This document shows, piece by piece, positions 5,458 through 18,113 of a stretch of DNA of 64,000 nucleotides; within the stretch, counting starts at the first letter, position 1; each line of letters begins with the position of its first letter. A model generated the notes under the pieces. That model saw only the letters and a program-made list of their open reading frames with translations, made no database searches and had not been told where the DNA came from. The stretch lies in the NCBI RefSeq assembly GCF_964245895.1, contig NZ_CAXTOQ010000003.1, positions 3,187-67,186 on the forward strand, read 5' to 3'. Made by a program: the position numbers and the translations under genes. This DNA is from an uncultured Amnibacterium sp. Its GTDB lineage: Bacteria > Actinomycetota > Actinomycetes > Actinomycetales > Microbacteriaceae.

Positions 5458-7395
5458 TCAGACCGCCGCCACCACGCGCACCCGGTGCTCGAACGGGTAC
5501 ACCAGCGCGTTGGCGGCGAGCTCGATCCGGCCGGTCTGCTCCCCCCGCTTGCCCGTCACGGGATCGGCCGGGAAGAGCAGGACCTCCTCGACCAGCTCGA
5601 CGCCCGGCAGGTTCTGCAGCACCCCGAACAGCTCCCCGGCGACGAGCGGCCGCCCGAACGGCCAGCCCCGCCCCTCCGGGCCGCCGTCGACCGGGTCGAG
5701 GTAGCGGTACAGCGCGTCGGTCGCCCGGTTCGCGAGGTCGTCCGCGTCCACGCCGCCGCGGGCCGCGATCCTCGTGATGACCGTCACGCCCTGGAACCGC
5801 GGCGGCTCGACCAGCACCCGCGTGCCGACCAGCCTGCGCCGGTCGAGTCGTTCCGCGATCGCGTTCAGCAGCTCGATCGGAGGATCCAGCGACTCGAACG
5901 GGATCCTGCCGTGCTCGTCCCTGCCCGGTGCGGGGACCACCAGCAGGCGCACGAGGCCGGCGTCGGCCGGGCTCGCGGCGGGGGCGCAGCGCACCCGCGC
6001 GATGCCGGAGGCCGCGTCGCGGGCGATCGACTCGAAGTCCTCGACGGTGACGGCGCGATCCCGCGTCCGCAGCGCGACCGGGGCACGCCGCTTCGCCTCG
6101 TCGACCGTCTCCCCGGCGGTGCCGCCGTGGGCCGCGAGCCGGTTCCCCGCCCCCGAGACGAACGGGATGGTCCGGCGCAGGACCGTCAGCGTGCCGGCCG
6201 CGACGTTCCCCTCCGCGCCACCGCCGGTCCGGTAGGAGCGCACGCGCAGCGGCGCCCCCTTCGGCGGCACCGCCCCGTAGCGGCGCAGCGATCCGTCCTG
6301 CTGACGGAGGGCCGGGCCGAAGACGACCACGCCCTCGGCGCGGTCGAGCGTCACGACGCGGTCGTCCGGGCCGGCGCCCGCGAAGTCGGGGACCTCCATC
6401 CACTCGGTCCACCCGGCGCCGTCCGCGACCTCGACCACGACCGGGTCCCGGTCGGCGACCACGGGACTGCGCTGCAGCGCGAACCGCTGCCCCGGCACCC
6501 CCTCCGACAGCCCGACGACCTCCCCCGCGATGCGCTCCGCGTGCAGCGCCGCCACCCGGCCGCCGACCGTCGCCGCCGTCACGGCGGTGATGACCGGCGA
6601 CTCGCTGTAGAACGGGTACCCGGCGGGCGGCGCGACGGTCCGGCAGCGGACCCATCCGGCGCGGACGCCGGCGACCAGCGAGACGGCGTGGGAGGCGGGC
6701 AGCAGCAGGACGACGTCACCGTTCCGGTTGAGACCGCCGGTCCCGTCCTCCACCACCTCGCACGCCTCCCAGGTCGCACCGGTCCATCCCTCCCACCGGA
6801 TCGGCGGCTGCCGCGGGTCGACCCCGACGCCGCGGACCTCGCAGCCGAACCGGAACCGGACGGCGCAGTCCGGCGCGGCGCCGTCGAGGCCGAGCAGCAT
6901 CGCGTCGCCGACCTTCGGCGTCTCGGAGAACGCGGAGAAGCGACCGCCGGCCGCGCCGACGACCGGTGCACCGGCCCCGGGCGGAGCGGTGCCCGTGGCG
7001 ACCAGCTCCCGCGGCGGCATCGCCAGGTCCGCGGTGGTCGCGAAGACGATCGGCGGCGCCTCCGGCACGCGCCGCGTGCCGACCTCCGTCCCCTCCGGGA
7101 TCGTGACGACCACCTGCTGCGGCGCGGCGAGCCGGAACACGAGGTCCGCGACCGCGGCCGCCGGCGGATGCAGCTGCACGCCGATCAGGTCGAGGAAGGT
7201 CACGTACAGCCGGTCGGGCACACGGTTGAGCCGGTAGAACAGCTCGTCCACCATGAACGCGACCGTCTCGATCAGGGTGACGCCCGGGTCCGACACGTTG
7301 TGGTCGGTCCAGTCGGGCGACCGCTCCTGGACCAGCCGCTTCGCGTCGTCCACCAGGTCCTGGAACCGCCGGTCGTCGAGGTCGGGGGCCTTCAT
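5458..7395 (-). CDS. Baseplate assembly protein (baseplate J/gp47-like)
   Basis: Start MKAPDLDDRRFQDLVDDAK; WTDHNVSDPGVTLIE and RDRAVTVEDFE motifs; ATGA overlap with gp25. Confidence 0.92.
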   Translation of the reverse strand: MKAPDLDDRRFQDLVDDAKRLVQERSPDWTDHNVSDPGVTLIETVAFMVDELFYRLNRVPDRLYVTFLDLIGVQLHPPAAAVADLVFRLAAPQQVVVTIPEGTEVGTRRVPEAPPIVFATTADLAMPPRELVATGTAPPGAGAPVVGAAGGRFSAFSETPKVGDAMLLGLDGAAPDCAVRFRFGCEVRGVGVDPRQPPIRWEGWTGATWEACEVVEDGTGGLNRNGDVVLLLPASHAVSLVAGVRAGWVRCRTVAPPAGYPFYSESPVITAVTAATVGGRVAALHAERIAGEVVGLSEGVPGQRFALQRSPVVADRDPVVVEVADGAGWTEWMEVPDFAGAGPDDRVVTLDRAEGVVVFGPALRQQDGSLRRYGAVPPKGAPLRVRSYRTGGGAEGNVAAGTLTVLRRTIPFVSGAGNRLAAHGGTAGETVDEAKRRAPVALRTRDRAVTVEDFESIARDAASGIARVRCAPAASPADAGLVRLLVVPAPGRDEHGRIPFESLDPPIELLNAIAERLDRRRLVGTRVLVEPPRFQGVTVITRIAARGGVDADDLANRATDALYRYLDPVDGGPEGRGWPFGRPLVAGELFGVLQNLPGVELVEEVLLFPADPVTGKRGEQTGRIELAANALVYPFEHRVRVVAAV

Positions 7396-9625: not shown

Positions 9626-10355
9626 GGCGCACCTCCCGCTCGACCGCGGCGCGGCGGGCGCCGTCGATCAGCTCGACCGCCGCAGGGAGGAAGATCGGCG
9701 TGCCGCTCGGGATGCGCTGCGGGTCGTCGATGCCGTTCACCTCGGCGAGCCGCCGCCACAGCGCGGGGTCGCCGTACTCCGACCAGGCCAGCGCGGCGAG
9801 GCCGTCGCCCGCGTCGAACACGTGGACCCGCTTCGGCAGCAGCCCGCCGGACGTCGGGTTCTGCTTCGCCGTCTCCCCCGCGATCTCCTCGAGGTTCACC
9901 GTGCAGACCGCGCGCAGCGGCATCCCGCTCGGGGAGAAGAGGGTGTACTTCGCCGAGACGGACCGGACGAACGCGTGGAAGCCCGTCAGCTCCCCCCACC
10001 GGAACATCACCCAGGGCGCCGAGCTCGCCGCCTTCCCCCGGGTGTCGCTGGTCGGGACGCAGCACTCGAACAGCGCGTCGACGCTGTCCTTCACCGCCGA
10101 GCCCGGCTTGTCGCTGGTGTCGAAGAACATCTCCAGCGTGAGCTTCCCGGGCTCCGGTCCGGTGTACTGCGGCGGTCCGCTCGACTTCGCCCGCTTCGTC
10201 TTGTGGTGCTCCCAGTGGGCGGACTTCGTGAACGTGATCTCCTTCGGGTTGAACTGGAAGGTGATCTGCTTGCGCTCGGGACCCGGCGCGTCCAGCGAGT
10301 CCTTCCCCGGCTCGAAGACCCGCAGGTAGGCCTTCTCGAGCCCCTCGACGGCCAC
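9612..10355 (-). CDS. CIS tube initiator / LysM-domain baseplate protein
   Basis: ITFQFNPKEI, PWVMFRWG, NPTSGG motifs and C-terminal LysM-like EYGDPALWRRLAEVNGIDDP. Confidence 0.88.
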   Translation of the reverse strand: MAVEGLEKAYLRVFEPGKDSLDAPGPERKQITFQFNPKEITFTKSAHWEHHKTKRAKSSGPPQYTGPEPGKLTLEMFFDTSDKPGSAVKDSVDALFECCVPTSDTRGKAASSAPWVMFRWGELTGFHAFVRSVSAKYTLFSPSGMPLRAVCTVNLEEIAGETAKQNPTSGGLLPKRVHVFDAGDGLAALAWSEYGDPALWRRLAEVNGIDDPQRIPSGTPIFLPAAVELIDGARRAAVEREVRRAAR

Positions 10356-10804: not shown

Positions 10805-12646
10805 TCAGAATCGGTTGGAGCGCACGCCGCGGCGCTCGCGTTCGGTGACCAGCTCGGCCTTGATCCGCCAGAGCAGCGCCGGCATCAGGCCGGCGGCGAG
10901 GCGGTCGAGGTCCTCGCGGGACGTCGGCACCTGCGGCGGGGCGGCCGGTCCCCCGGCGGTGCCCGCAGCGGGCGCCCCGCCGGCGGGAGGGGCCTCCATC
11001 GCCACGGGCTCGGGCGGCACCGGAGGCGGACCGGCCCCGTCCGGCCCCTCCCGCTGCACGACGGGATCCTCGGCCGTCGCGGGCGAACCGACGCGTACGG
11101 CCGGTCGCGGCAGCGGACGCGCGGGCGCGGAACCGCCGGCCGGCTCCGGCCACGAGCGCGCGACGGGGAGGCGCTGCAGCGGCAGCGCGCCGACGGGCTC
11201 GGCCTGCCGTGACGGCTCACCGAACCGCAGCGTCGGAGCCGGCCGTCGACCCGATCCCGGCTCCCCCGCGTCGGGCGCGCCGACCGGGACGGGCGTCCGG
11301 TCGACCCACCGCGCCGGGAGGGGAGGCGCGTCGTCCACCTCCCACGTCCGTCGCTGGAGGTCGACGACGGCGGCCGACGCCCGGGGCGCCGACGTCGGCA
11401 GGGTCGACCACGCCGGAGTCTCTGGCTCGTCCGCCGCTGCAGGCGCCGGGCTCCCGGCGACGCCCGGCGCTTCGAAGGTGAGCGGCTGGACGGGCGCGAA
11501 CGGCTCGACGCGTTCGGGCAGCGCGACGCGGGCGGCCCGGATCGGCGCTTCCGGGAGGTCGGAGTGCGCGCGGGACGGCCCCGGCCGACCGAGCCCGACG
11601 GGCTGCGGCGCGTCCGGCGCACCCTGCAGCACGCCGGGCGCGACACCTCCAGGTGTCGGAGGAGCGGACTGCCGGGCGGCCACCTCGGTCGCCTCGACGA
11701 CGTCCGACGGGCTCGCTCCGCCTCCCCGGACCGGCGCGACCGGATCGAGCCGCGTCCGCTGGATCATCGGCCCGGACGGGTCCAGCCGGTCGATGGTCGC
11801 CTCCGGTGACGACGACGGCAGCTCGAGGTGCGGCTCGAGGAACGGGTCGGACGGCGGGGTCGGGGGTGCGGCCTCCGGCGTCGACATGGCGGGCTGGAGT
11901 GACGGCTCCTGCCTCGCAGGTCGCGCGTCGATCGGCCGGACCGCCCGGGCACCCGCCTCCCGCTGCACCGGGGTCGGCGCGGAAGCCGCAGCCGACTCGG
12001 CAACCCGGCCGCGCGCGCTCCGCTGCACCGCCTGCTGGATCCGTTGCGCGATCGGCCGCCCAGGTTTGGCGGCGATCGGCCCGGGCCCGGCGGACGGTCC
12101 CGACGTCCATGCCGCGGCGGGCATGGATGCGGCCGCCGGGCGCGCGGACGCGACCGGGATCGCCGGGGGCCCGGCGACGTGCTCGCCCTCCGGCTCCCGG
12201 GTCGGGATCGCGGTCGCGATCGGCGGCGCGGCCGCCTCCGCCGTTTCCGCGTCCAGCTCCGTCCGGGGCTCGACGACCGGCTCCTCATCGCCCTCGGCGG
12301 CGAGGTCGCGCGCGGCGGCGCCGGTCGGGGCAGGCGCGGCGCGGACCATCGGCGCGGTCGACGGGGCGAGCGCTCGCGAGACCGTCGGCCCCCGCCGCTC
12401 GGGGGCGTCGAGCTCGATGACCCCGCTCGGTCCGTCGAGCCTCCGGCCGGAGCCGATCGACGGCGCGACGAGGCTCGGATCCGACCAGGCCGCGAGGCGA
12501 CCGGGGAAGGAGGCGGGTGCTGACACCAGCTCGATCGAGCCCACCGTCCGCTGCAGGGGCGGCAGGAAGCGCCAGCCGGCCGGCGCCGGAGGCCGGGTCA
12601 CGGGTGCCGGGGGCTCTGCGTCCCGGCGCTGCCACGGCCAGCGCAT
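10805..12646 (-). CDS. Pro/Ala-rich low-complexity CIS protein (613 aa) in the tape-measure position
   Basis: Co-oriented inside the CIS operon; N-terminus MRWPWQRR..GWRFLPPLQRTVG, C-terminal helix DLDRLAAGLMPALLWRIKAELVTERERRG; middle largely disordered. Confidence 0.7.
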   Translation of the reverse strand: MRWPWQRRDAEPPAPVTRPPAPAGWRFLPPLQRTVGSIELVSAPASFPGRLAAWSDPSLVAPSIGSGRRLDGPSGVIELDAPERRGPTVSRALAPSTAPMVRAAPAPTGAAARDLAAEGDEEPVVEPRTELDAETAEAAAPPIATAIPTREPEGEHVAGPPAIPVASARPAAASMPAAAWTSGPSAGPGPIAAKPGRPIAQRIQQAVQRSARGRVAESAAASAPTPVQREAGARAVRPIDARPARQEPSLQPAMSTPEAAPPTPPSDPFLEPHLELPSSSPEATIDRLDPSGPMIQRTRLDPVAPVRGGGASPSDVVEATEVAARQSAPPTPGGVAPGVLQGAPDAPQPVGLGRPGPSRAHSDLPEAPIRAARVALPERVEPFAPVQPLTFEAPGVAGSPAPAAADEPETPAWSTLPTSAPRASAAVVDLQRRTWEVDDAPPLPARWVDRTPVPVGAPDAGEPGSGRRPAPTLRFGEPSRQAEPVGALPLQRLPVARSWPEPAGGSAPARPLPRPAVRVGSPATAEDPVVQREGPDGAGPPPVPPEPVAMEAPPAGGAPAAGTAGGPAAPPQVPTSREDLDRLAAGLMPALLWRIKAELVTERERRGVRSNRF

Positions 12647-12649
12647 GCG

Positions 12650-12808
12650 TCAGCCGCCTTCCGCGGAGCGACGGTTCAGCTCCGAGATCGCCTCGACGTA
12701 GCGCAGCCGCTCGCGGTGCTCCAGGTCCAGGATGTCGTCGAGCGGCCAGTGGAAGTGGTAGGCGATGTACGCGACCTCCTCGCGGATGCGGTCGGTCGCG
12801 TACGTCAC
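12650..12808 (-). CDS. DUF6760-like small protein (resembles gpT/gpE' chaperone extension)
   Basis: VTYATDRIREEVAYIAYHFHWPLDDILDLEHRERLRYVEAISELN; lies in the -1 frame, overlapping the upstream stop by GTGA. Confidence 0.85.
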   Translation of the reverse strand: MTYATDRIREEVAYIAYHFHWPLDDILDLEHRERLRYVEAISELNRRSAEGG

Positions 12809-12817
12809 GATTCCCCC
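12767..12817 (-). promoter_or_regulatory. Candidate programmed -1 ribosomal frameshift signal: GGGGGAA slippery heptamer plus downstream stem-loop
   Basis: mRNA reads CTG GGG GAA TCG TGA; heptamer at 12817-12811, 7-nt spacer, perfect stem GTACGCGACC (12803-12794) / GGTCGCGTAC (12776-12767). Confidence 0.6.
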
Positions 12818-13218
12818 AGGCGACCACCTGCCAGGTCGGCCGTGAACCGGTGCTCGCACGCCGGGCAGGTGATCGCGATCCGCGTGTGGCCCTCGGCGTT
12901 GATCCGCCGGTAGAAGTCCTGCAGGAAAGCGACGTCGGACGCGTACATGCGCTCGACGACGCCGGCGTCGACCTTCGGCAGGGAGCCGAGCCGGGTGATC
13001 ACCCGGCCGAGCAGCACCACCGTCGTCCAGGCCGCGTGCTCCTGGACCTTGGCGTCGAACAGCGGCAGCAGCTCGTCCCTGGCCGTGGCGAGCCGCATCG
13101 TGCCGGACCGGTGCACCGCGCCGTCGTCGCCCAGGTAGCCGCGCGGCAGCTCGAAGTCGAACTCGGTCCGCAGCGCGGCCTGCTCCTCCTCCGCGGCGAC
13201 GGACACCGTGCGCTGCAT
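12805..13218 (-). CDS. Probable tail assembly chaperone of the CIS (C-terminal CxxC)
   Basis: TEFDFELPRGY, GTMRLATARDE, FLQDFYRRIN, ITCPACEHRF..GGRLGES; immediately after the tube gene, the chaperone position in contractile tails. Confidence 0.7.
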   Translation of the reverse strand: MQRTVSVAAEEEQAALRTEFDFELPRGYLGDDGAVHRSGTMRLATARDELLPLFDAKVQEHAAWTTVVLLGRVITRLGSLPKVDAGVVERMYASDVAFLQDFYRRINAEGHTRIAITCPACEHRFTADLAGGRLGES

Positions 13219-13661
13219 CAGCCCACGCTCGACTCGTCGTAGCAGACCGTGAACTTCTCGGTCGCCTGCTCGGCCGCACCCGCCTTCAGCGAGTTCAGCT
13301 CGACGCTGCGCACCCAGCAGTTGGTGAAGCTGTACGTCTTGATGGTGTCGCCCTTGTAGTCGAGCAGCGCCACCGACGCGGTCTTCCTCGCCCCGGCGAC
13401 GTCGCCGTCCATGACGACCTTCAGCCAGTCCGTGACCGTCTTGCTCTCGGTGAGCCCGCGGGTCACGGTGAACTCGCCCGCCTTCACCCGGCCGATCAGC
13501 TGCCGCACGATGTACTTGCCGTCCGAGGTCTGCTGCTTCAGCTCGATCTTGTCGACCTCGCTCTTCAGCCCGCTGACCTCGGTGACCTTCGGCACCTCGA
13601 TGCCGTCGATCTTGACGATGAAGCCGTTGGCCGGCGACGAGTCGAACTTGTCCAGCGCCAT
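13218..13661 (-). CDS. Major tail tube protein (T4 gp19-like, Hcp-fold)
   Basis: FIVKIDG, EVSGLKSE, FTVTRG, RKTASVALLD, YSFTNCW motifs; follows sheath. Confidence 0.92.
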   Translation of the reverse strand: MALDKFDSSPANGFIVKIDGIEVPKVTEVSGLKSEVDKIELKQQTSDGKYIVRQLIGRVKAGEFTVTRGLTESKTVTDWLKVVMDGDVAGARKTASVALLDYKGDTIKTYSFTNCWVRSVELNSLKAGAAEQATEKFTVCYDESSVG

Positions 13662-13690: not shown

Positions 13691-15232
13691 TCACTCGCCG
13701 ACCAGGCCGGTGCCGCTCGAGAACTGCGCCAGCTGGAACACCACGAACTCCGCCGGCTTCACCGGGGCGACGCCGATCTGGCAGATCACCTGGCCCGCGT
13801 CGATGACCTCGGGCGGGTTGGTCTCCGCGTCGCACTTCACGAAGAACGCCTCCTGCTCGAGCGAGCCGAACAGCGAGCCCGCGCGCCACTCGTTCAGCAG
13901 GAAGGCGCGGATCGTGCGGGTCAGCCGGCCCCACAGCGCCTGGTCGTTCGGCTCGAACACCGCGAACTGGGTCTGGGTGAGGATCGACTTCTCGAGGTAG
14001 TTGAACAGCCGCCGGAGGTTGACGTAGCGCCAGGCGGGATCGCTCGAGAGGGTGCGGGCGCCCCAGACGCGGATGCCGCCGCCGGGGAAGCTGCGGATGA
14101 CGTTGACCCCGATCGGGTTCAGCAGCTCCTGCTCCGTGCGCGTGATCCTGGTGTGCAGGTCGACGGCGCCGCGGACGATCTCGTTCGCCGGCGCCTTGTG
14201 CACGCCGCGCTCGGCGTCGTTCCTGGCCCAGATCCCGGCCACGTGCCCGGAGGGGGGCACGAACCGGATCGTGCTGGTCACCGGGTCCTGCACCTTCACC
14301 CACGGGTAGTACAGGGCGGCGAACTTCGAGTCGTAGCCGGCGGTGCTCACCCGCCACTCGCGCACCTGCTGCGCGTTCATGCCGGGCGGGGAATCCAGGA
14401 TCGCCAGCCGGTCGCCCATCAGCTCGCAGTGGCTGATGACCCCCAGCTGCACGGCCTTCACGGTCTCGAGGTCGATCGCGCCCTGCTCGTAGGCGGCCAT
14501 CAGGTCCGGGACCGTCACCATCGTGACCTCCTCGATGGCCTCGAGGCCGCCGAACCCGGTCCGCTCGGCGGCGTCGCCGATGTAGCTGGCCGCGTCCACG
14601 GCACCGGGGACGGAGAGGTCGGTCGTGGCCGCCGTGGTCAGCTCGTAGGTGCCCTGGAGGGGGCCTGCGGCCGGCACCGGCTGCGACGCGACCTCGATGG
14701 CGACGAGCTTCGACTCGGCCGTGACCCTGGTCGCCACGAAGTCGGGGCTGGTCGGCGTGACGGACAGCCGCTCCCAGCTCTCGCTGCTCTTCCCCTCCGC
14801 CGACACGGTGACGTTCACGAGGTCGCCGCCCGGGTCGTCGCCGGTCGCCGGCTCGAACGCGACCTTCACGCCCTTCGTCGACGCGGCCTTCGCGGTCAGC
14901 AGGTAGCCGCCGGTCGACGCGGCGGCGAGCGCCGCGGTCGGCTTGGCTCCGCGTGCCGGTCGGCTCTTCGCCGCGGTGATGCGGACGATGTAGCAGTTGC
15001 CGCCGCCGTTGTTGAAGTACCCGTAGACGGCGTACCCGAGGTAGGAGCCGGCGGCGAGCCCGCCGAAGGTGTCGACGAACTGCGTCCAGTTCGACACGAG
15101 CGTCGGCGTGTTCTCGGGCCCGATCGGCGCGACGCCGACGAACGCGGCGACGGCGGTGCCGACGCCCTCGATCGGGCGCGTGCCGGCCTCGACCTCCTGC
15201 ACGTACACGCCGGGCGACAGATAGGTGGGCAT
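13691..15232 (-). CDS. Contractile tail sheath protein
   Basis: MPTYLSPGVYVQEV, YYPWVKVQDP, PPSGHVAGIWARND..RGVHKAPAN, WGARTLS, KPAEFVVF motifs. Confidence 0.96.
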   Translation of the reverse strand: MPTYLSPGVYVQEVEAGTRPIEGVGTAVAAFVGVAPIGPENTPTLVSNWTQFVDTFGGLAAGSYLGYAVYGYFNNGGGNCYIVRITAAKSRPARGAKPTAALAAASTGGYLLTAKAASTKGVKVAFEPATGDDPGGDLVNVTVSAEGKSSESWERLSVTPTSPDFVATRVTAESKLVAIEVASQPVPAAGPLQGTYELTTAATTDLSVPGAVDAASYIGDAAERTGFGGLEAIEEVTMVTVPDLMAAYEQGAIDLETVKAVQLGVISHCELMGDRLAILDSPPGMNAQQVREWRVSTAGYDSKFAALYYPWVKVQDPVTSTIRFVPPSGHVAGIWARNDAERGVHKAPANEIVRGAVDLHTRITRTEQELLNPIGVNVIRSFPGGGIRVWGARTLSSDPAWRYVNLRRLFNYLEKSILTQTQFAVFEPNDQALWGRLTRTIRAFLLNEWRAGSLFGSLEQEAFFVKCDAETNPPEVIDAGQVICQIGVAPVKPAEFVVFQLAQFSSGTGLVGE

Positions 15233-16844: not shown

Positions 16845-18113
16845 CTACTTCGAGAGGGCGATGCTCTCCCGGTAGCCCCTGGCCCAACCGAGCAGGGCCT
16901 GCTGCCAGCCCGACGAGTTCGGCGAGTACCAATGCCCGGTCAAGGTGACTTTGGCTAACCCGGAGATACCGATCGCATTCAGTCGATCTTCGATGTCCGT
17001 GCCGACGTCGTACTTGTAGTCATCGGCTGCCTGGGGCGCGGTCGGCGACTTACCACCCTGGGCGGCGCCGACATCGCGCCTCATCTTGGCGATTCCGGCG
17101 GCGGCCGCCGACTCCCTCAGGATCCACGCTGCCCACATGTACCGCTCGTAGATCTTCGCGATCTCCCCCGCGGACAGCAGCTCCTCCGCCCCCGAGCAGA
17201 TCGAGGAGATCTCCGTGAACAGCTGCTGATACTCCGCCTCGGTCCCCGCAGCGTCGAACTTCGCAACATCGTCATCCGACATGGCCGCCAGACTCGTTGC
17301 CCGGTCACTGAAGCTCGCCTCGACCTCCCGCTCGTATCCGGCGAGCGACTCCAGATTGGAGGTGAGGAAGCCGACCGCGGTCTGATCGACGGCGGCGCCG
17401 GGAGTCTTCACCCCGAGATCGTTGTTCGAGGGAGCCTCGGGCACCTGGCCGGCCTTCGAACTCGCGTTCGCGACCTGGTTCCCCCGGATGTTCGTGACGT
17501 AGCCGCCAACGGCCGCAACAGCCGGATTCTCCGCCGTCTCGACGATCTTCTTGATCCGTCGAGCCCGCAGCCCGAGCGTGGTGAACTTCTTACCGAGCGC
17601 GCCCAATCCGGCCATCGCGAGCGGCTCGAAGGCACCGGCGGTGCCGACCGCGATCACCAGACCGATCACCTGAGCCTTCATCGCGTCGGTCTGCGCTTGC
17701 GCGGACTGCGCAGTCTGGAATCCGGCCGTCGCCTGATCGATGCCGTTCGTGATGCGATAGATCGCCTGCTGATAGCTCGCGCGGCGCTCCCCGAACTTCG
17801 CTCGCCACTTCACGTCGATGGCCAGGGCGTTCGACCTCGCCCGATCGGCGGCTCGCGCCTTCTCGAGATCAGCGACCCTGGAGTCGAGCGACGGCTTCGG
17901 GGGCTCGCGTTGGATCGCGGAGACCGGTCCGCGAGCCGTTGTCGTGCTGCGAGCGAGCATCGCGATCGTCGCCTGGTTCCCGGCCTGCTTCTGCAGGCGC
18001 AGCATCTCCGAGGCCGGCGGCGCGCTCGTCGACGATCTGGACTCGACGGCCGCGGCCCGGGCAGTCCGCTGCCGCTCGTGGTTCGGCTCCTCGCGACCCA
18101 GGCGTTCAGCCAT
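16845..18113 (-). CDS. Hypothetical protein (422 aa), candidate CIS cargo/effector
   Basis: Start MAERLGREEP after GGAGGGG SD; LRLQKQAGNQAT leader like DUF4157; hydrophobic hairpin VIGLVIAVGTAGAFEPLAMAGLGALG; lower GC and an in-frame TTA codon. Confidence 0.7.
   Translation of the reverse strand: MAERLGREEPNHERQRTARAAAVESRSSTSAPPASEMLRLQKQAGNQATIAMLARSTTTARGPVSAIQREPPKPSLDSRVADLEKARAADRARSNALAIDVKWRAKFGERRASYQQAIYRITNGIDQATAGFQTAQSAQAQTDAMKAQVIGLVIAVGTAGAFEPLAMAGLGALGKKFTTLGLRARRIKKIVETAENPAVAAVGGYVTNIRGNQVANASSKAGQVPEAPSNNDLGVKTPGAAVDQTAVGFLTSNLESLAGYEREVEASFSDRATSLAAMSDDDVAKFDAAGTEAEYQQLFTEISSICSGAEELLSAGEIAKIYERYMWAAWILRESAAAAGIAKMRRDVGAAQGGKSPTAPQAADDYKYDVGTDIEDRLNAIGISGLAKVTLTGHWYSPNSSGWQQALLGWARGYRESIALSK

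What the first reader, a model, noticed from the sequence alone, without database searches (positions are those of the whole stretch)
12650..13218. Phage-style programmed -1 frameshift signal linking the CIS chaperone-like gene to DUF6760
Seen: the 137-aa gene ends CTG GGG GAA TCG TGA; DUF6760 is in the -1 frame and open through the junction (GGG GGA ATC GTG); the GGGGGAA run (12817-12811) is followed after exactly 7 nt by a perfect 10-bp stem (12803-12794 / 12776-12767), and there is no well-spaced SD before the DUF6760 GTG. Known: long-tailed phages make gpG and gpGT chaperones by -1 frameshifting just upstream of the tape measure gene; I recall GGGGGAA as the L5-type mycobacteriophage slippery site (should be verified). 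DUF6760 resembles the P2 gpE' extension (..FHWP..). Inference: the CIS makes a 137-aa chaperone and an ~189-aa fusion (..GGRLG-GIVTYATDR..), so DUF6760 would be the gpT half rather than a separate protein. I am not aware of this being described for CIS loci.
Basis: partly seen in the sequence, partly recalled or inferred. Interest (0 to 1): 0.88.

Follow-up and report, generated by a model that had tools for sequence, protein, structure and literature searches.

The report
Frameshifted tail chaperone in injection-system operon
A phage-tail-like injection system in this actinobacterium very probably makes a short and a long form of its tail-assembly chaperone by a programmed -1 ribosomal slip, as tailed phages do, so the small "DUF6760" gene that databases list separately is mainly the tail end of the long form.

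Summary
The 137-aa gene after the tail tube gene ends CTG GGG GAA TCG TGA. DUF6760 lies in the -1 frame, and a 10-bp stem starts 7 nt after G_GGG_GAA.

Comparison with relatives supports the frameshift reading.
- In all 80 related actinobacterial loci, 23 nt of the junction are invariant apart from one wobble base (one locus changes a second base). Equally conserved residues elsewhere in the gene vary freely in codon choice.
- The hairpin is conserved, with compensatory changes.
- In 32 of 32 distant loci that carry the domain, it sits in the -1 frame. It usually has no start codon, and in some loci its frame opens only at the heptamer.
- Other lineages use other heptamers: G_GGG_GAG, G_GGG_GGG, T_TTT_TTA/G, G_GGA_AAT/C.
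- Bacillus myophage BCD7 has the same pair directly upstream of its tape measure gene.
- DUF6760 aligns to the frameshift extension E' of phage P2.
- GGGGGAA is a documented slippery motif in actinophage chaperone genes.

No protein-level evidence exists, and in this clade a GTG/ATG start could also yield some free DUF6760. I found no paper in the held library that describes this for injection systems. This scan has already noted the same signal on other DNA (21 earlier notes).

Verdict: a real feature and a new member of a known kind.

The parts
13691..15232 (-). Tail sheath gene (513 aa)
   Evidence: Pfam Phage_sheath_1 (1.4e-28) and Phage_sheath_1C
13218..13661 (-). Tail tube gene (147 aa). 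Its stop overlaps the chaperone start as ATGA.
   Evidence: Pfam Phage_T4_gp19 2.4e-27; sequence
12805..13218 (-). Tail-assembly-chaperone-like gene in the 0 frame, 137 aa (short product). It has a zinc-ribbon-like CxxC motif and a disordered C-terminal tail GRLGES.
   Evidence: PHROG_508 'tail assembly chaperone' E 0.008. AlphaFold pLDDT 83, with residues 132-137 below 50. Fold matches to T4-like baseplate hub assembly proteins and BCD7 gp090 (E 5e-7 to 1e-5), and weakly to Mu FS-gp41. 6764 homologues found.
12811..12817 (-). Slippery heptamer G_GGG_GAA in 0-frame phase, two codons before the stop
   Evidence: Invariant in 81 of 81 loci. Documented as an actinophage slippery motif.
12804..12810 (-). 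7-nt spacer TCGTGAC. It contains the 0-frame stop TGA (12807-12805) and most of the -1-frame GTG (12808-12806).
   Evidence: Invariant except for the third base of TCN, plus TGG in one locus.
12762..12808 (-). Stimulatory hairpin. The core is 10 bp (12803-12794 with 12776-12767). The lower stem pairs 12808-12805 with 12765-12762.
   Evidence: -30.9 kcal/mol, z -5.25. 88% of cells are paired, against 14-50% for slid controls; 5 pairs show compensatory change; 0 of 500 shuffles reach the score. Synonymous variation is suppressed at ACG, GCG and TAC in the arms.
12650..12817 (-). -1-frame coding part of the long product (GG-I-V-TYATDR...AEGG, the DUF6760 domain). With residues 1-135 of the chaperone it gives a 189-aa fusion.
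   Evidence: Pfam PF20546. The homologous block starts right at the heptamer in start-less relatives. Aligns to P2 E'.
10805..12646 (-). 613-aa Pro/Ala-rich protein in the position where phages carry the tape measure gene. This is a candidate client of the chaperone, inferred from position only.
   Evidence: No family hit. The position follows the chaperone pair. In phage BCD7 the homologous pair is followed by the annotated tape measure gene.

Best explanation
The 137-aa gene and 'DUF6760' form one recoded gene pair of the phage G/GT (P2 E/E+E') type. Most ribosomes translate the chaperone to its TGA and release the 137-aa protein.

A fraction pause over G_GGG_GAA, held up by the hairpin that starts 7 nt downstream. 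The GAA codon, rare in this GC-rich genome, may add to the pause. The P-site tRNA-Gly re-pairs from GGG to GGG. The A-site tRNA-Glu re-pairs from GAA to GGA with a central G:U pair. Alternatively only the P-site tRNA slips while the A site is empty.

Translation then continues in the -1 frame and gives a 189-aa protein: chaperone residues 1-135 followed by GI-VTYATDR... (the DUF6760 domain).

By analogy with lambda gpG/gpGT and P2 E/E+E', the shared N-terminal part would hold the tape-measure-like protein, probably the 613-aa product of the next gene. The DUF6760 extension would recruit tube subunits during tail assembly. Neither form is expected to be a stoichiometric part of the finished particle.

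Shown here: the anatomy of the signal, its conservation, and the homology. Inferred: that slipping actually occurs, how efficient it is, and who binds what.
For: 1. The signal is present and in phase.
2. The 23-nt junction CGCCTGGGGGAATCNTGACGTAC is invariant in all 80 related loci plus the window, apart from the wobble base N (TGG replaces TCN in one locus). These come from at least 25 actinobacterial genera or families and one Solirubrobacteraceae MAG.
3. Synonymous variation stops exactly there. CGC, CTG, GGG and GAA are each 81 of 81, while other invariant Arg, Leu, Gly and Glu codons vary. The C-terminal tail is predicted to be disordered, so protein fold does not explain the invariance.
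4. The hairpin is stable (z -5.25) and conserved with compensatory changes.
5. Among 37 distant loci from metagenomes and IMG/VR, 32 carry the DUF6760 motif, always in the -1 frame. At least 17 have no ATG, GTG or TTG before the conserved block. In L117, L118 and L120 the -1 frame opens only 10-13 nt before the 0-frame stop, exactly at the heptamer. All 32 have an in-phase heptamer, and most of them a GCTACC..GGTAGC hairpin 5-7 nt behind it. The heptamers differ among lineages: G_GGG_GAA, GAG, GGG and GGA, T_TTT_TTA, T_TTT_TTG, G_GGA_AAT.
6. The window's 'start' GTG is homologous to an internal Val codon (GTA or GTC) in start-less relatives.
7. Named isolates from Cyanobacteriota, Bacillota, Betaproteobacteria and Halobacteria show the same arrangement. 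In Nostoc, PGAP had to start the DUF6760 CDS at ATA.
8. Myophage BCD7 has sheath, tube, tube and gp090, which ends CTG GGG GAG TAA. A start-less DUF6760-like -1 ORF follows in an unannotated gap, and the tape measure gene comes directly after it.
9. The DUF6760 profile aligns to the P2 E' extension (probability 84.7%, E 6.7e-6). The fusion also gives a weak Pfam hit to Phage_P2_GpE (E 0.07).
10. GGGGGAA is the slippery motif of about a thousand annotated actinophage chaperone frameshifts (PMC10885494) and of corynephage phi16.
Against: There is no direct evidence of the 189-aa product: no mass spectrometry, ribosome profiling or reporter data.

G_GGG_GAA is not a canonical X_XXY_YYZ site, because the A-site re-pairing needs a central G:U pair.

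In this clade 79 of 81 loci have GTG or ATG overlapping the stop. The G-run can also act as an SD (-8.4 kcal/mol, spacing 3-4 nt). The hairpin buries the start codon, as in classical translational coupling. Independent translation of DUF6760 is therefore possible and could account for part of the conservation.

The chaperone's sequence links to established chaperone families are weak: PHROG E 0.008, Mu FS-gp41 fold E 0.096, and no Pfam, NCBIfam or PDB hit.

The downstream 613-aa protein has no tape-measure signature.
Confidence: 0.85

Rival explanations
1. Coupling only. DUF6760 is a separate 52-aa protein, made solely by termination-reinitiation at the overlapping GTGA. The G-run serves as its Shine-Dalgarno sequence, and the hairpin keeps the start closed until an upstream ribosome opens it. 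No fusion protein is made.
For: GTGA or ATGA overlap occurs in 79 of 81 close loci. GGGGG pairs with the anti-SD at -8.4 kcal/mol, similar to other SDs of the operon. The lower stem includes the GTG. PGAP annotates two genes.
Against: In distant homologues the same G-run, and often the very same CGCCTGGGGGAATCG, is kept where the homologous codon is GTA, GTC or CTT and the -1 ORF holds no start codon.

An SD would tolerate GGAG-type synonymous variants. The real SD in front of the next gene does vary (EGG, EER, EGR and QGR endings), whereas this site never does.

The -1 phase is constant in 113 loci.

The G/A/C pattern at the first base of the 'start' is what a conserved Val codon plus transitions would give. 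L034 has CTG.
Confidence: 0.07
2. Dual route. The -1 frameshift operates as in the best explanation. In addition, Actinobacteria make free DUF6760 from the GTG/ATG, so three products exist (137, 189 and 52 aa).
For: All the evidence for the frameshift applies. In addition there is the start codon overlapping the stop and the SD-like G-run in this clade. ATG variants have arisen in several families: Microbacteriaceae, Micrococcaceae, Knoellia and Glycomyces.
Against: Start-less relatives show that free DUF6760 is not needed for function. The SD spacing is short. The GTG follows automatically from a conserved Val codon plus a TGA stop in a GC-rich genome. Only about 4 independent changes to A and 1 to C can be counted, which is too few to show selection for a start.
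Confidence: 0.3
3. Transcriptional slippage. RNA polymerase adds one extra G in the G5 run, and ordinary translation of that mRNA subpopulation gives the fusion.
For: A homopolymer run sits at the junction in every lineage (G5-G7 or T6). One added base would give the same protein frame.
Against: Runs of 5-6 bases are short for bacterial transcriptional slippage, by established knowledge of IS elements and Thermus dnaX. The run is always in X_XXY_YYZ phase, and slippage by the polymerase would not require that. G_GGA_AAT/C sites have no long homopolymer. A conserved hairpin 5-7 nt downstream is the hallmark of ribosomal -1 frameshifting.
Confidence: 0.04

Closest known systems
Phage P2 gpE / gpE+E' (-1 frameshift at T_TTT_TTG, between tube gene FII and tape measure gene T)
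   Same: Both belong to contractile-tail systems and follow the order sheath, tube, chaperone, -1 extension. In both, the extension is about 50 aa and is reached a few codons before the 0-frame stop. The DUF6760 profile aligns to E' residues 90-132, including the ..VA.I.FHWP.. core. Some relatives use the very same T_TTT_TTG heptamer (L110).
   Different: The upstream part is not detectably a Phage_TAC_7 (gpE) homologue by sequence. The heptamer here is G_GGG_GAA. The system is a bacterial contractile injection system, not a virus. The next gene is a Pro/Ala-rich protein without a tape-measure signature.
Lambda gpG/gpGT and the conserved tail-assembly-chaperone frameshift of long-tailed phages (Levin et al. 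1993; Xu, Hendrix and Duda 2004; cited from my own knowledge)
   Same: The logic is the same: two overlapping ORFs upstream of the tape measure position, a -1 slip near the end of the first ORF, and a second ORF without its own start in most relatives. The position is conserved while the heptamers vary.
   Different: There is no sequence homology to G or T. The extension is short (54 aa added, against about 140 in lambda T). The ratio of products and the binding partners are untested here.
Actinobacteriophage tail assembly chaperone frameshifts with the GGGGGAA 'fivetwo' motif (SEA-PHAGES annotations; PRFect paper PMC10885494; corynephage phi16 PMC5506516)
   Same: The heptamer is identical and in the same phase (A-site GAA re-pairing to GGA). 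The hosts belong to the same phylum, and the gene class is the same.
   Different: Those are siphophage or myophage genomes. This is a chromosomal CIS operon, and its extension domain is DUF6760.
Bacillus phage BCD7 gp090 plus the unannotated downstream -1 ORF
   Same: Both halves are homologous: tblastn E 3e-4 over residues 17-180 of the fusion, and DUF6760 Pfam E 1e-4. The heptamer is G_GGG_GAG two codons before the stop. The pair lies directly upstream of the annotated tape measure gene.
   Different: gp090 carries two tandem copies of the chaperone domain (257 aa). The frameshift is not annotated or tested there either.

Membership tests
Tail assembly chaperone -1 PRF pair (lambda G/GT, P2 E/E+E' type) | Two overlapping ORFs placed after the tail tube / major tail gene and before the tape measure gene | tested here: inconclusive
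   The tube gene lies directly upstream. The downstream 613-aa gene is in the right place but has no tape-measure signature. In the homologous pair of phage BCD7 the next gene is the annotated tape measure gene.
Tail assembly chaperone -1 PRF pair (lambda G/GT, P2 E/E+E' type) | Second ORF in the -1 frame relative to the first, conserved among homologues, and lacking its own start | tested here: met
   The frame is -1 in 81 of 81 close loci and 32 of 32 distant loci. At least 17 distant loci have no start codon. The window itself has a GTG, homologous to an internal Val codon.
Tail assembly chaperone -1 PRF pair (lambda G/GT, P2 E/E+E' type) | Slippery heptamer in 0-frame phase shortly before the stop of the first ORF | tested here: met
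   G_GGG_GAA lies two codons before the TGA and is invariant. It is a documented phage motif. Relatives carry T_TTT_TTA/G and G_GGA_AAT/C. It is not strictly X_XXY_YYZ, because it needs a G:U pair.
Tail assembly chaperone -1 PRF pair (lambda G/GT, P2 E/E+E' type) | Downstream stimulatory RNA structure at 5-9 nt (common, not universal) | tested here: met
Tail assembly chaperone -1 PRF pair (lambda G/GT, P2 E/E+E' type) | Both a short and a long protein are made in a fixed ratio, and both are needed for tail assembly | not testable with these tools
   Needs a Western blot, mass spectrometry or reporter assays, plus genetics. Indirect support: clean in-frame fusions are practically absent among 5.8 billion proteins.
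Tail assembly chaperone -1 PRF pair (lambda G/GT, P2 E/E+E' type) | Homology of the two halves to known chaperone halves | tested here: inconclusive
   Extension: hhalign to P2 E' gives 84.7% probability, and Pfam Phage_P2_GpE gives E 0.07. N-terminal part: PHROG_508 E 0.008, Mu FS-gp41 fold E 0.096 with probability 0.97, and no Pfam TAC family.
Pfam DUF6760 (PF20546) | Score above the curated cut-off (27 bits) | tested here: met
   45 bits, E 1.2e-11, matching profile positions 7-53 of 89.
Translationally coupled gene pair with stop-start overlap (GTGA) | Start codon of the downstream gene conserved among homologues | tested here: not met
   GTG or ATG is kept in the actinobacterial clade (79 of 81). 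The homologous codon is GTA, GTC, CTT and others, and no start exists, in most distant relatives.

The most novel reading that the evidence does not exclude
The chaperone-to-DUF6760 frameshift is an ancient, near-universal feature of this large class of contractile injection systems in Bacteria and Archaea. If so, DUF6760 is not a free-standing protein family but the gpT/E'-like module of a G/GT-type chaperone. By implication, the unannotated long protein encoded next to it (here the 613-aa Pro/Ala-rich protein) would be the missing tape-measure or lumen protein of systems that papers describe as lacking a typical tape measure (Casu et al. 2023, PMC10066040).
Probability: 0.55. Interest if true: 0.72.

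Novelty: new member of a known kind. Interest (0 to 1): 0.62.

Why it matters
Programmed -1 frameshifting in tail assembly chaperones is a textbook feature of tailed phages. I found no paper in the held library that reports it for contractile injection systems. The Streptomyces CIS papers treat the homologous gene, sco4251, as a protein of unknown function and do not mention a frameshift.

If the reading is right, several things follow.
- It re-annotates a Pfam family of unknown function and thousands of loci now listed as 'phage tail assembly protein' plus 'DUF6760 family protein'.
- It explains why gene finders mis-start or miss the second ORF.
- It points to the client protein of the chaperone.
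- It matters in practice for anyone who re-codes, codon-optimises or heterologously expresses such systems as delivery devices. Codon optimisation would silently destroy the heptamer and hairpin, and with them the long product.

Tried and rejected
1. Natural in-frame fusions as 'Rosetta stone' evidence. A search of 5.8 billion proteins with the DUF6760 part of the fusion, restricted to proteins of 104-330 aa, gave only 14 hits. Most are gene calls that run in the -1 frame or contain several frame breaks. Two or three join the frames just upstream of the G-run and cannot be told apart from sequencing errors. The single-piece match in Kovacikia plasmid pA is a further frame break in the chaperone gene, not a fusion.

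2. Long representatives (160-206 aa) of the chaperone family are not fusions with DUF6760. They carry unrelated tails or are chimeras.

3. Start-codon conservation (G 61, A 18, C 1 at the first base) first looked like evidence for an independent start. I rejected it as weak. The position is a conserved Val codon in start-less relatives, the TGA stop forces NTG, and only about five independent changes can be counted.

4. No sequence match for the chaperone in Pfam, NCBIfam or PDB. The PDB fold search had no significant hit; the best lead was YqbN (3klu), TM 0.36-0.40, E 2.6.

5. Rfam has no family at the junction.

6. T4 gp26 and gp51 belong to the family named in the fold hits, but neither has a DUF6760-like -1 extension. 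PF12322 does not hit the window's genome.

7. Alignment A3 was too diverse for a locus scan. A scan of viral contigs with alignment A6 found nothing.

8. The heptamer count in the window is not above chance on its own.

Full report
**What is there**

All genes of interest lie on the minus strand. In order they are:
- a tail sheath gene (13691-15232);
- a gp19-type tube gene (13218-13661);
- a 137-aa gene with no Pfam family (12805-13218);
- a 52-codon DUF6760 ORF (12650-12808; PF20546, E 1.2e-11);
- a 613-aa Pro/Ala-rich ORF (10805-12646);
- a second tube gene, a CIS_tube/Afp7-like gene and a VgrG-like spike gene.

This is a contractile injection system (CIS) operon.

The 137-aa gene ends GGT CGC CTG GGG GAA TCG TGA. 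The heptamer G_GGG_GAA (12817-12811) is in X_XXY_YYZ phase. The DUF6760 frame is the -1 frame, reads GGG GGA ATC GTG ACG..., and is open through the junction. Seven nucleotides after the heptamer a perfect 10-bp stem begins (12803-12794 with 12776-12767). With its lower extension it folds at -30.9 kcal/mol, z = -5.25 against shuffles.

The heptamer by itself is not rarer than chance in the window (3 found, 5.2 expected). The case rests on comparison with relatives.

**Close relatives**

The 137-aa protein has 6764 homologues in the protein collection. All 24 that I aligned end in ..RLGES.

I fetched 80 loci from at least 25 actinobacterial genera or families, plus one Solirubrobacteraceae MAG. 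All 80, and the window, share the 23-nt string CGC CTG GGG GAA TCN TGA CGTAC. N is G in 61, A in 18 and C in 1. One locus has TGG in place of TCN.

A codon-by-codon tally shows that this is not amino-acid conservation. At other invariant positions of the same gene:
- Glu is GAA in only 5-11% of loci;
- Gly is GGG in 6-22%;
- Arg and Leu codons vary freely.

At the last four sense codons before the Ser codon, CGC, CTG, GGG and GAA are each used in 81 of 81 loci. The two Gly codons just upstream vary (GGT, GGC, GGG).

The AlphaFold model of the protein (pLDDT 83) leaves residues 132-137 disordered. A structural reason for an invariant tail is therefore unlikely.

A useful internal control is the real Shine-Dalgarno region in front of the next gene. 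It lies in the last codons of DUF6760 and varies (..EGG..EER..EGR..QGR). That is how an SD constraint looks, and the junction does not look like that.

**The hairpin**

Single-sequence folds predict the stem-loop in 71 of 72 distinct sequences. On the alignment, 88% of cells pair, against 14-50% when the partner is slid by 1-3 columns. Five pairs show changes on both sides, for example C-G to U-A in 13 sequences, G-C to C-G and C-G to G-U. None of 500 shuffles reaches the covariation score. Synonymous variation is also suppressed in the arms: ACG 81/81, GCG 76/76 and TAC 81/81.

**Distant relatives, the decisive test**

An exhaustive profile search found 1354 representatives of the chaperone family. 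Using three small groups of distant representatives, I fetched 41 loci from metagenomes and IMG/VR, with GC content from 0.41 to 0.72. Of these, 37 could be assessed.

- 32 carry the DUF6760 motif (..EEVAYIAYHFHW..), always in the -1 frame and never in the 0 or +1 frame.
- Two of the remaining five are cut by contig ends but begin the same way.
- Three lack the domain (L112, L114, L115).
- In at least 17 loci the -1 ORF has no ATG, GTG or TTG before the conserved block.
- In L117, L118 and L120 the -1 frame opens only 10-13 nt before the 0-frame stop, exactly at the heptamer, so nothing but a shift at that spot can reach it.
- Several loci keep the very same CGC CTG GGG GAA TCG, but it is followed by TAA. 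The codon homologous to the window's 'start' is then GTA (Val), which cannot initiate.
- Heptamers differ between lineages but stay in phase: G_GGG_GAA, G_GGG_GAG, G_GGG_GGG, G_GGG_GGA, T_TTT_TTA (L109), T_TTT_TTG (L110, the P2 heptamer) and G_GGA_AAT (L103).
- Nearly all have a hairpin, GCTACC..GGTAGC, 5-7 nt downstream. It is built from different codons than in Actinobacteria, so the structure is kept rather than the sequence.

Complete replicons of named isolates show the same arrangement: Nostoc, Kovacikia, Paraburkholderia, Paenibacillus and Haloferax (G_GGA_AAC). PGAP names the pair 'phage tail assembly protein | DUF6760 family protein'. In Nostoc it starts the DUF6760 CDS at an ATA codon.

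**Link to phages**

A tblastn search of 50,697 phage records with the predicted fusion hit one phage, Bacillus myophage BCD7, under two accessions. Its gene order is sheath, tube, tube, gp090, an unannotated gap, then the tape measure gene. gp090 ends TTA CTG GGG GAG TAA. The gap holds a start-less -1 ORF, GGVTKLDTLTVETHIIAFNYHW.., which matches DUF6760 (E 1e-4). So the same domain pair sits in the classical chaperone slot of a real contractile-tailed phage.

A profile of 40 DUF6760 sequences aligns to residues 90-132 of P2 E+E', that is, to the frameshift extension E'. The probability is 84.7% and E is 6.7e-6. Pfam places E' in Phage_P2_GpE, and the window's fusion hits that family weakly (E 0.07).

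The chaperone half gives several matches:
- PHROG_508 'tail assembly chaperone' at E 0.008;
- structurally, T4-like 'baseplate hub assembly' proteins and BCD7 gp090 (E 5e-7 to 1e-5);
- more weakly, the frameshifted Mu chaperone FS-gp41 (probability 0.97, E 0.096).

Finally, GGGGGAA in this phase is the 'fivetwo' motif seen in about a thousand SEA-PHAGES chaperone frameshifts (PMC10885494). It is also proposed for corynephage phi16 (PMC5506516). I did not check phage L5 itself.

**Mechanism**

Shown: signal, phase, conservation and homology. Inferred: ribosomes pause at the hairpin over G_GGG_GAA. tRNA-Gly re-pairs GGG to GGG, and tRNA-Glu re-pairs GAA to GGA with a central G:U pair. Alternatively the P-site tRNA slips alone while the rare GAA codon waits.

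The result would be a 137-aa protein and a 189-aa protein (..GGRLG-GIVTYATDR..).

By analogy with G/GT and E/E+E', the common part would hold the tape-measure-like protein (candidate: the 613-aa product, by position only). The DUF6760 part would recruit tube subunits.

**What remains open**

No protein-level evidence exists. In this clade a GTG or ATG overlaps the stop. The G-run pairs with the anti-SD about as well as other SDs of the operon, though only 3-4 nt from the start. Some free DUF6760 may therefore also be made.

I rate this dual route at about 0.3 and coupling alone at 0.07. Transcriptional slippage is unlikely (0.04) because of the constant phase, the non-homopolymer G_GGA_AAT/C sites and the hairpin.

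Clean natural in-frame fusions are practically absent. This fits a need for both forms but proves nothing.

**Novelty**

The held library has no paper with 'DUF6760'. It has none that links contractile injection systems with a chaperone frameshift. The two S. coelicolor CIS papers call sco4251 a protein of unknown function. One of them states that a typical tape measure is absent. Neither mentions frameshifting.

This scan has noted the same signal before on other DNA: 21 earlier AI notes. I re-derived their main claims independently here, namely start-less -1 ORFs, varied heptamers, the hairpin, and presence in many phyla and in archaea.

The mechanism is a known kind, so I class this as a new member of it, in a new setting.

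Noticed in passing
L123 (Bacillus phage BCD7, NC_019515) 6351-6524: An unannotated, start-less -1 ORF with a DUF6760-like sequence lies in the gap between gp090 (ends CTG GGG GAG TAA) and the tape measure gene. This is a probable unannotated chaperone frameshift in a published phage genome.
   Followed up: partly
L126 (Nostoc sp. UHCC 0926 plasmid pn3) 2860-3030: PGAP's 'DUF6760 family protein' CDS begins at an ATA codon that overlaps the stop of the 'phage tail assembly protein'. The annotation pipeline had to invent a non-standard start for a start-less ORF.
   Followed up: partly
window 12805-13218 (-); L123 5587-6360; L130 (phage T4) 2803-4229: The chaperone fold resembles T4-like 'baseplate hub assembly' proteins. 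BCD7 gp090 (two tandem copies of the domain) hits Pfam PF12322 T4_baseplate at 7e-11. T4 gp26 and gp51 themselves have no DUF6760-like -1 extension.
   Followed up: partly
window 12844-12867 (-), residues 118-125 of the 137-aa protein: The CPxCxH motif has invariant C118 and C121, even in distant relatives, and looks like a zinc ribbon. H111 and H123 are invariant only among the close (actinobacterial) homologues of alignment A1. Its role is unknown.
   Followed up: no
window 10805-12646 (-): The 613-aa Pro/Ala-rich protein has a conserved N-terminus (MRWPWQR, seen in many related loci) and a conserved C-terminal stretch of about 35 aa, but no family hit. It occupies the tape-measure position, whereas a published account of Streptomyces CIS says a typical tape measure is absent.
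   Followed up: no
L125 (Kovacikia minuta plasmid pA) 3001-3543: This copy has an extra frame break inside the chaperone gene, just before the CxxC motif. The N-terminal part and DUF6760 therefore share a frame. It is either a pseudogene or an assembly error.
   Followed up: partly
L112, L114, L115: These chaperone homologues have no recognisable DUF6760 ORF downstream and end ..PLGG* or ..PLGAE* without a G-run heptamer. Some lineages may have lost the extension.
   Followed up: no
window 12650-12665 (-) and the same place in L001-L080: The last codons of DUF6760 (..EGG, ..EER, ..EGR) are purine-rich and act as the variable Shine-Dalgarno region of the next gene. They are a useful contrast to the invariant junction upstream.
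   Followed up: partly
window 10033-10039 (-) and 17479-17485 (-): These are the two other GGGGGAA copies in the window. Both are out of X_XXY_YYZ phase with the ORFs that contain them.
   Followed up: yes
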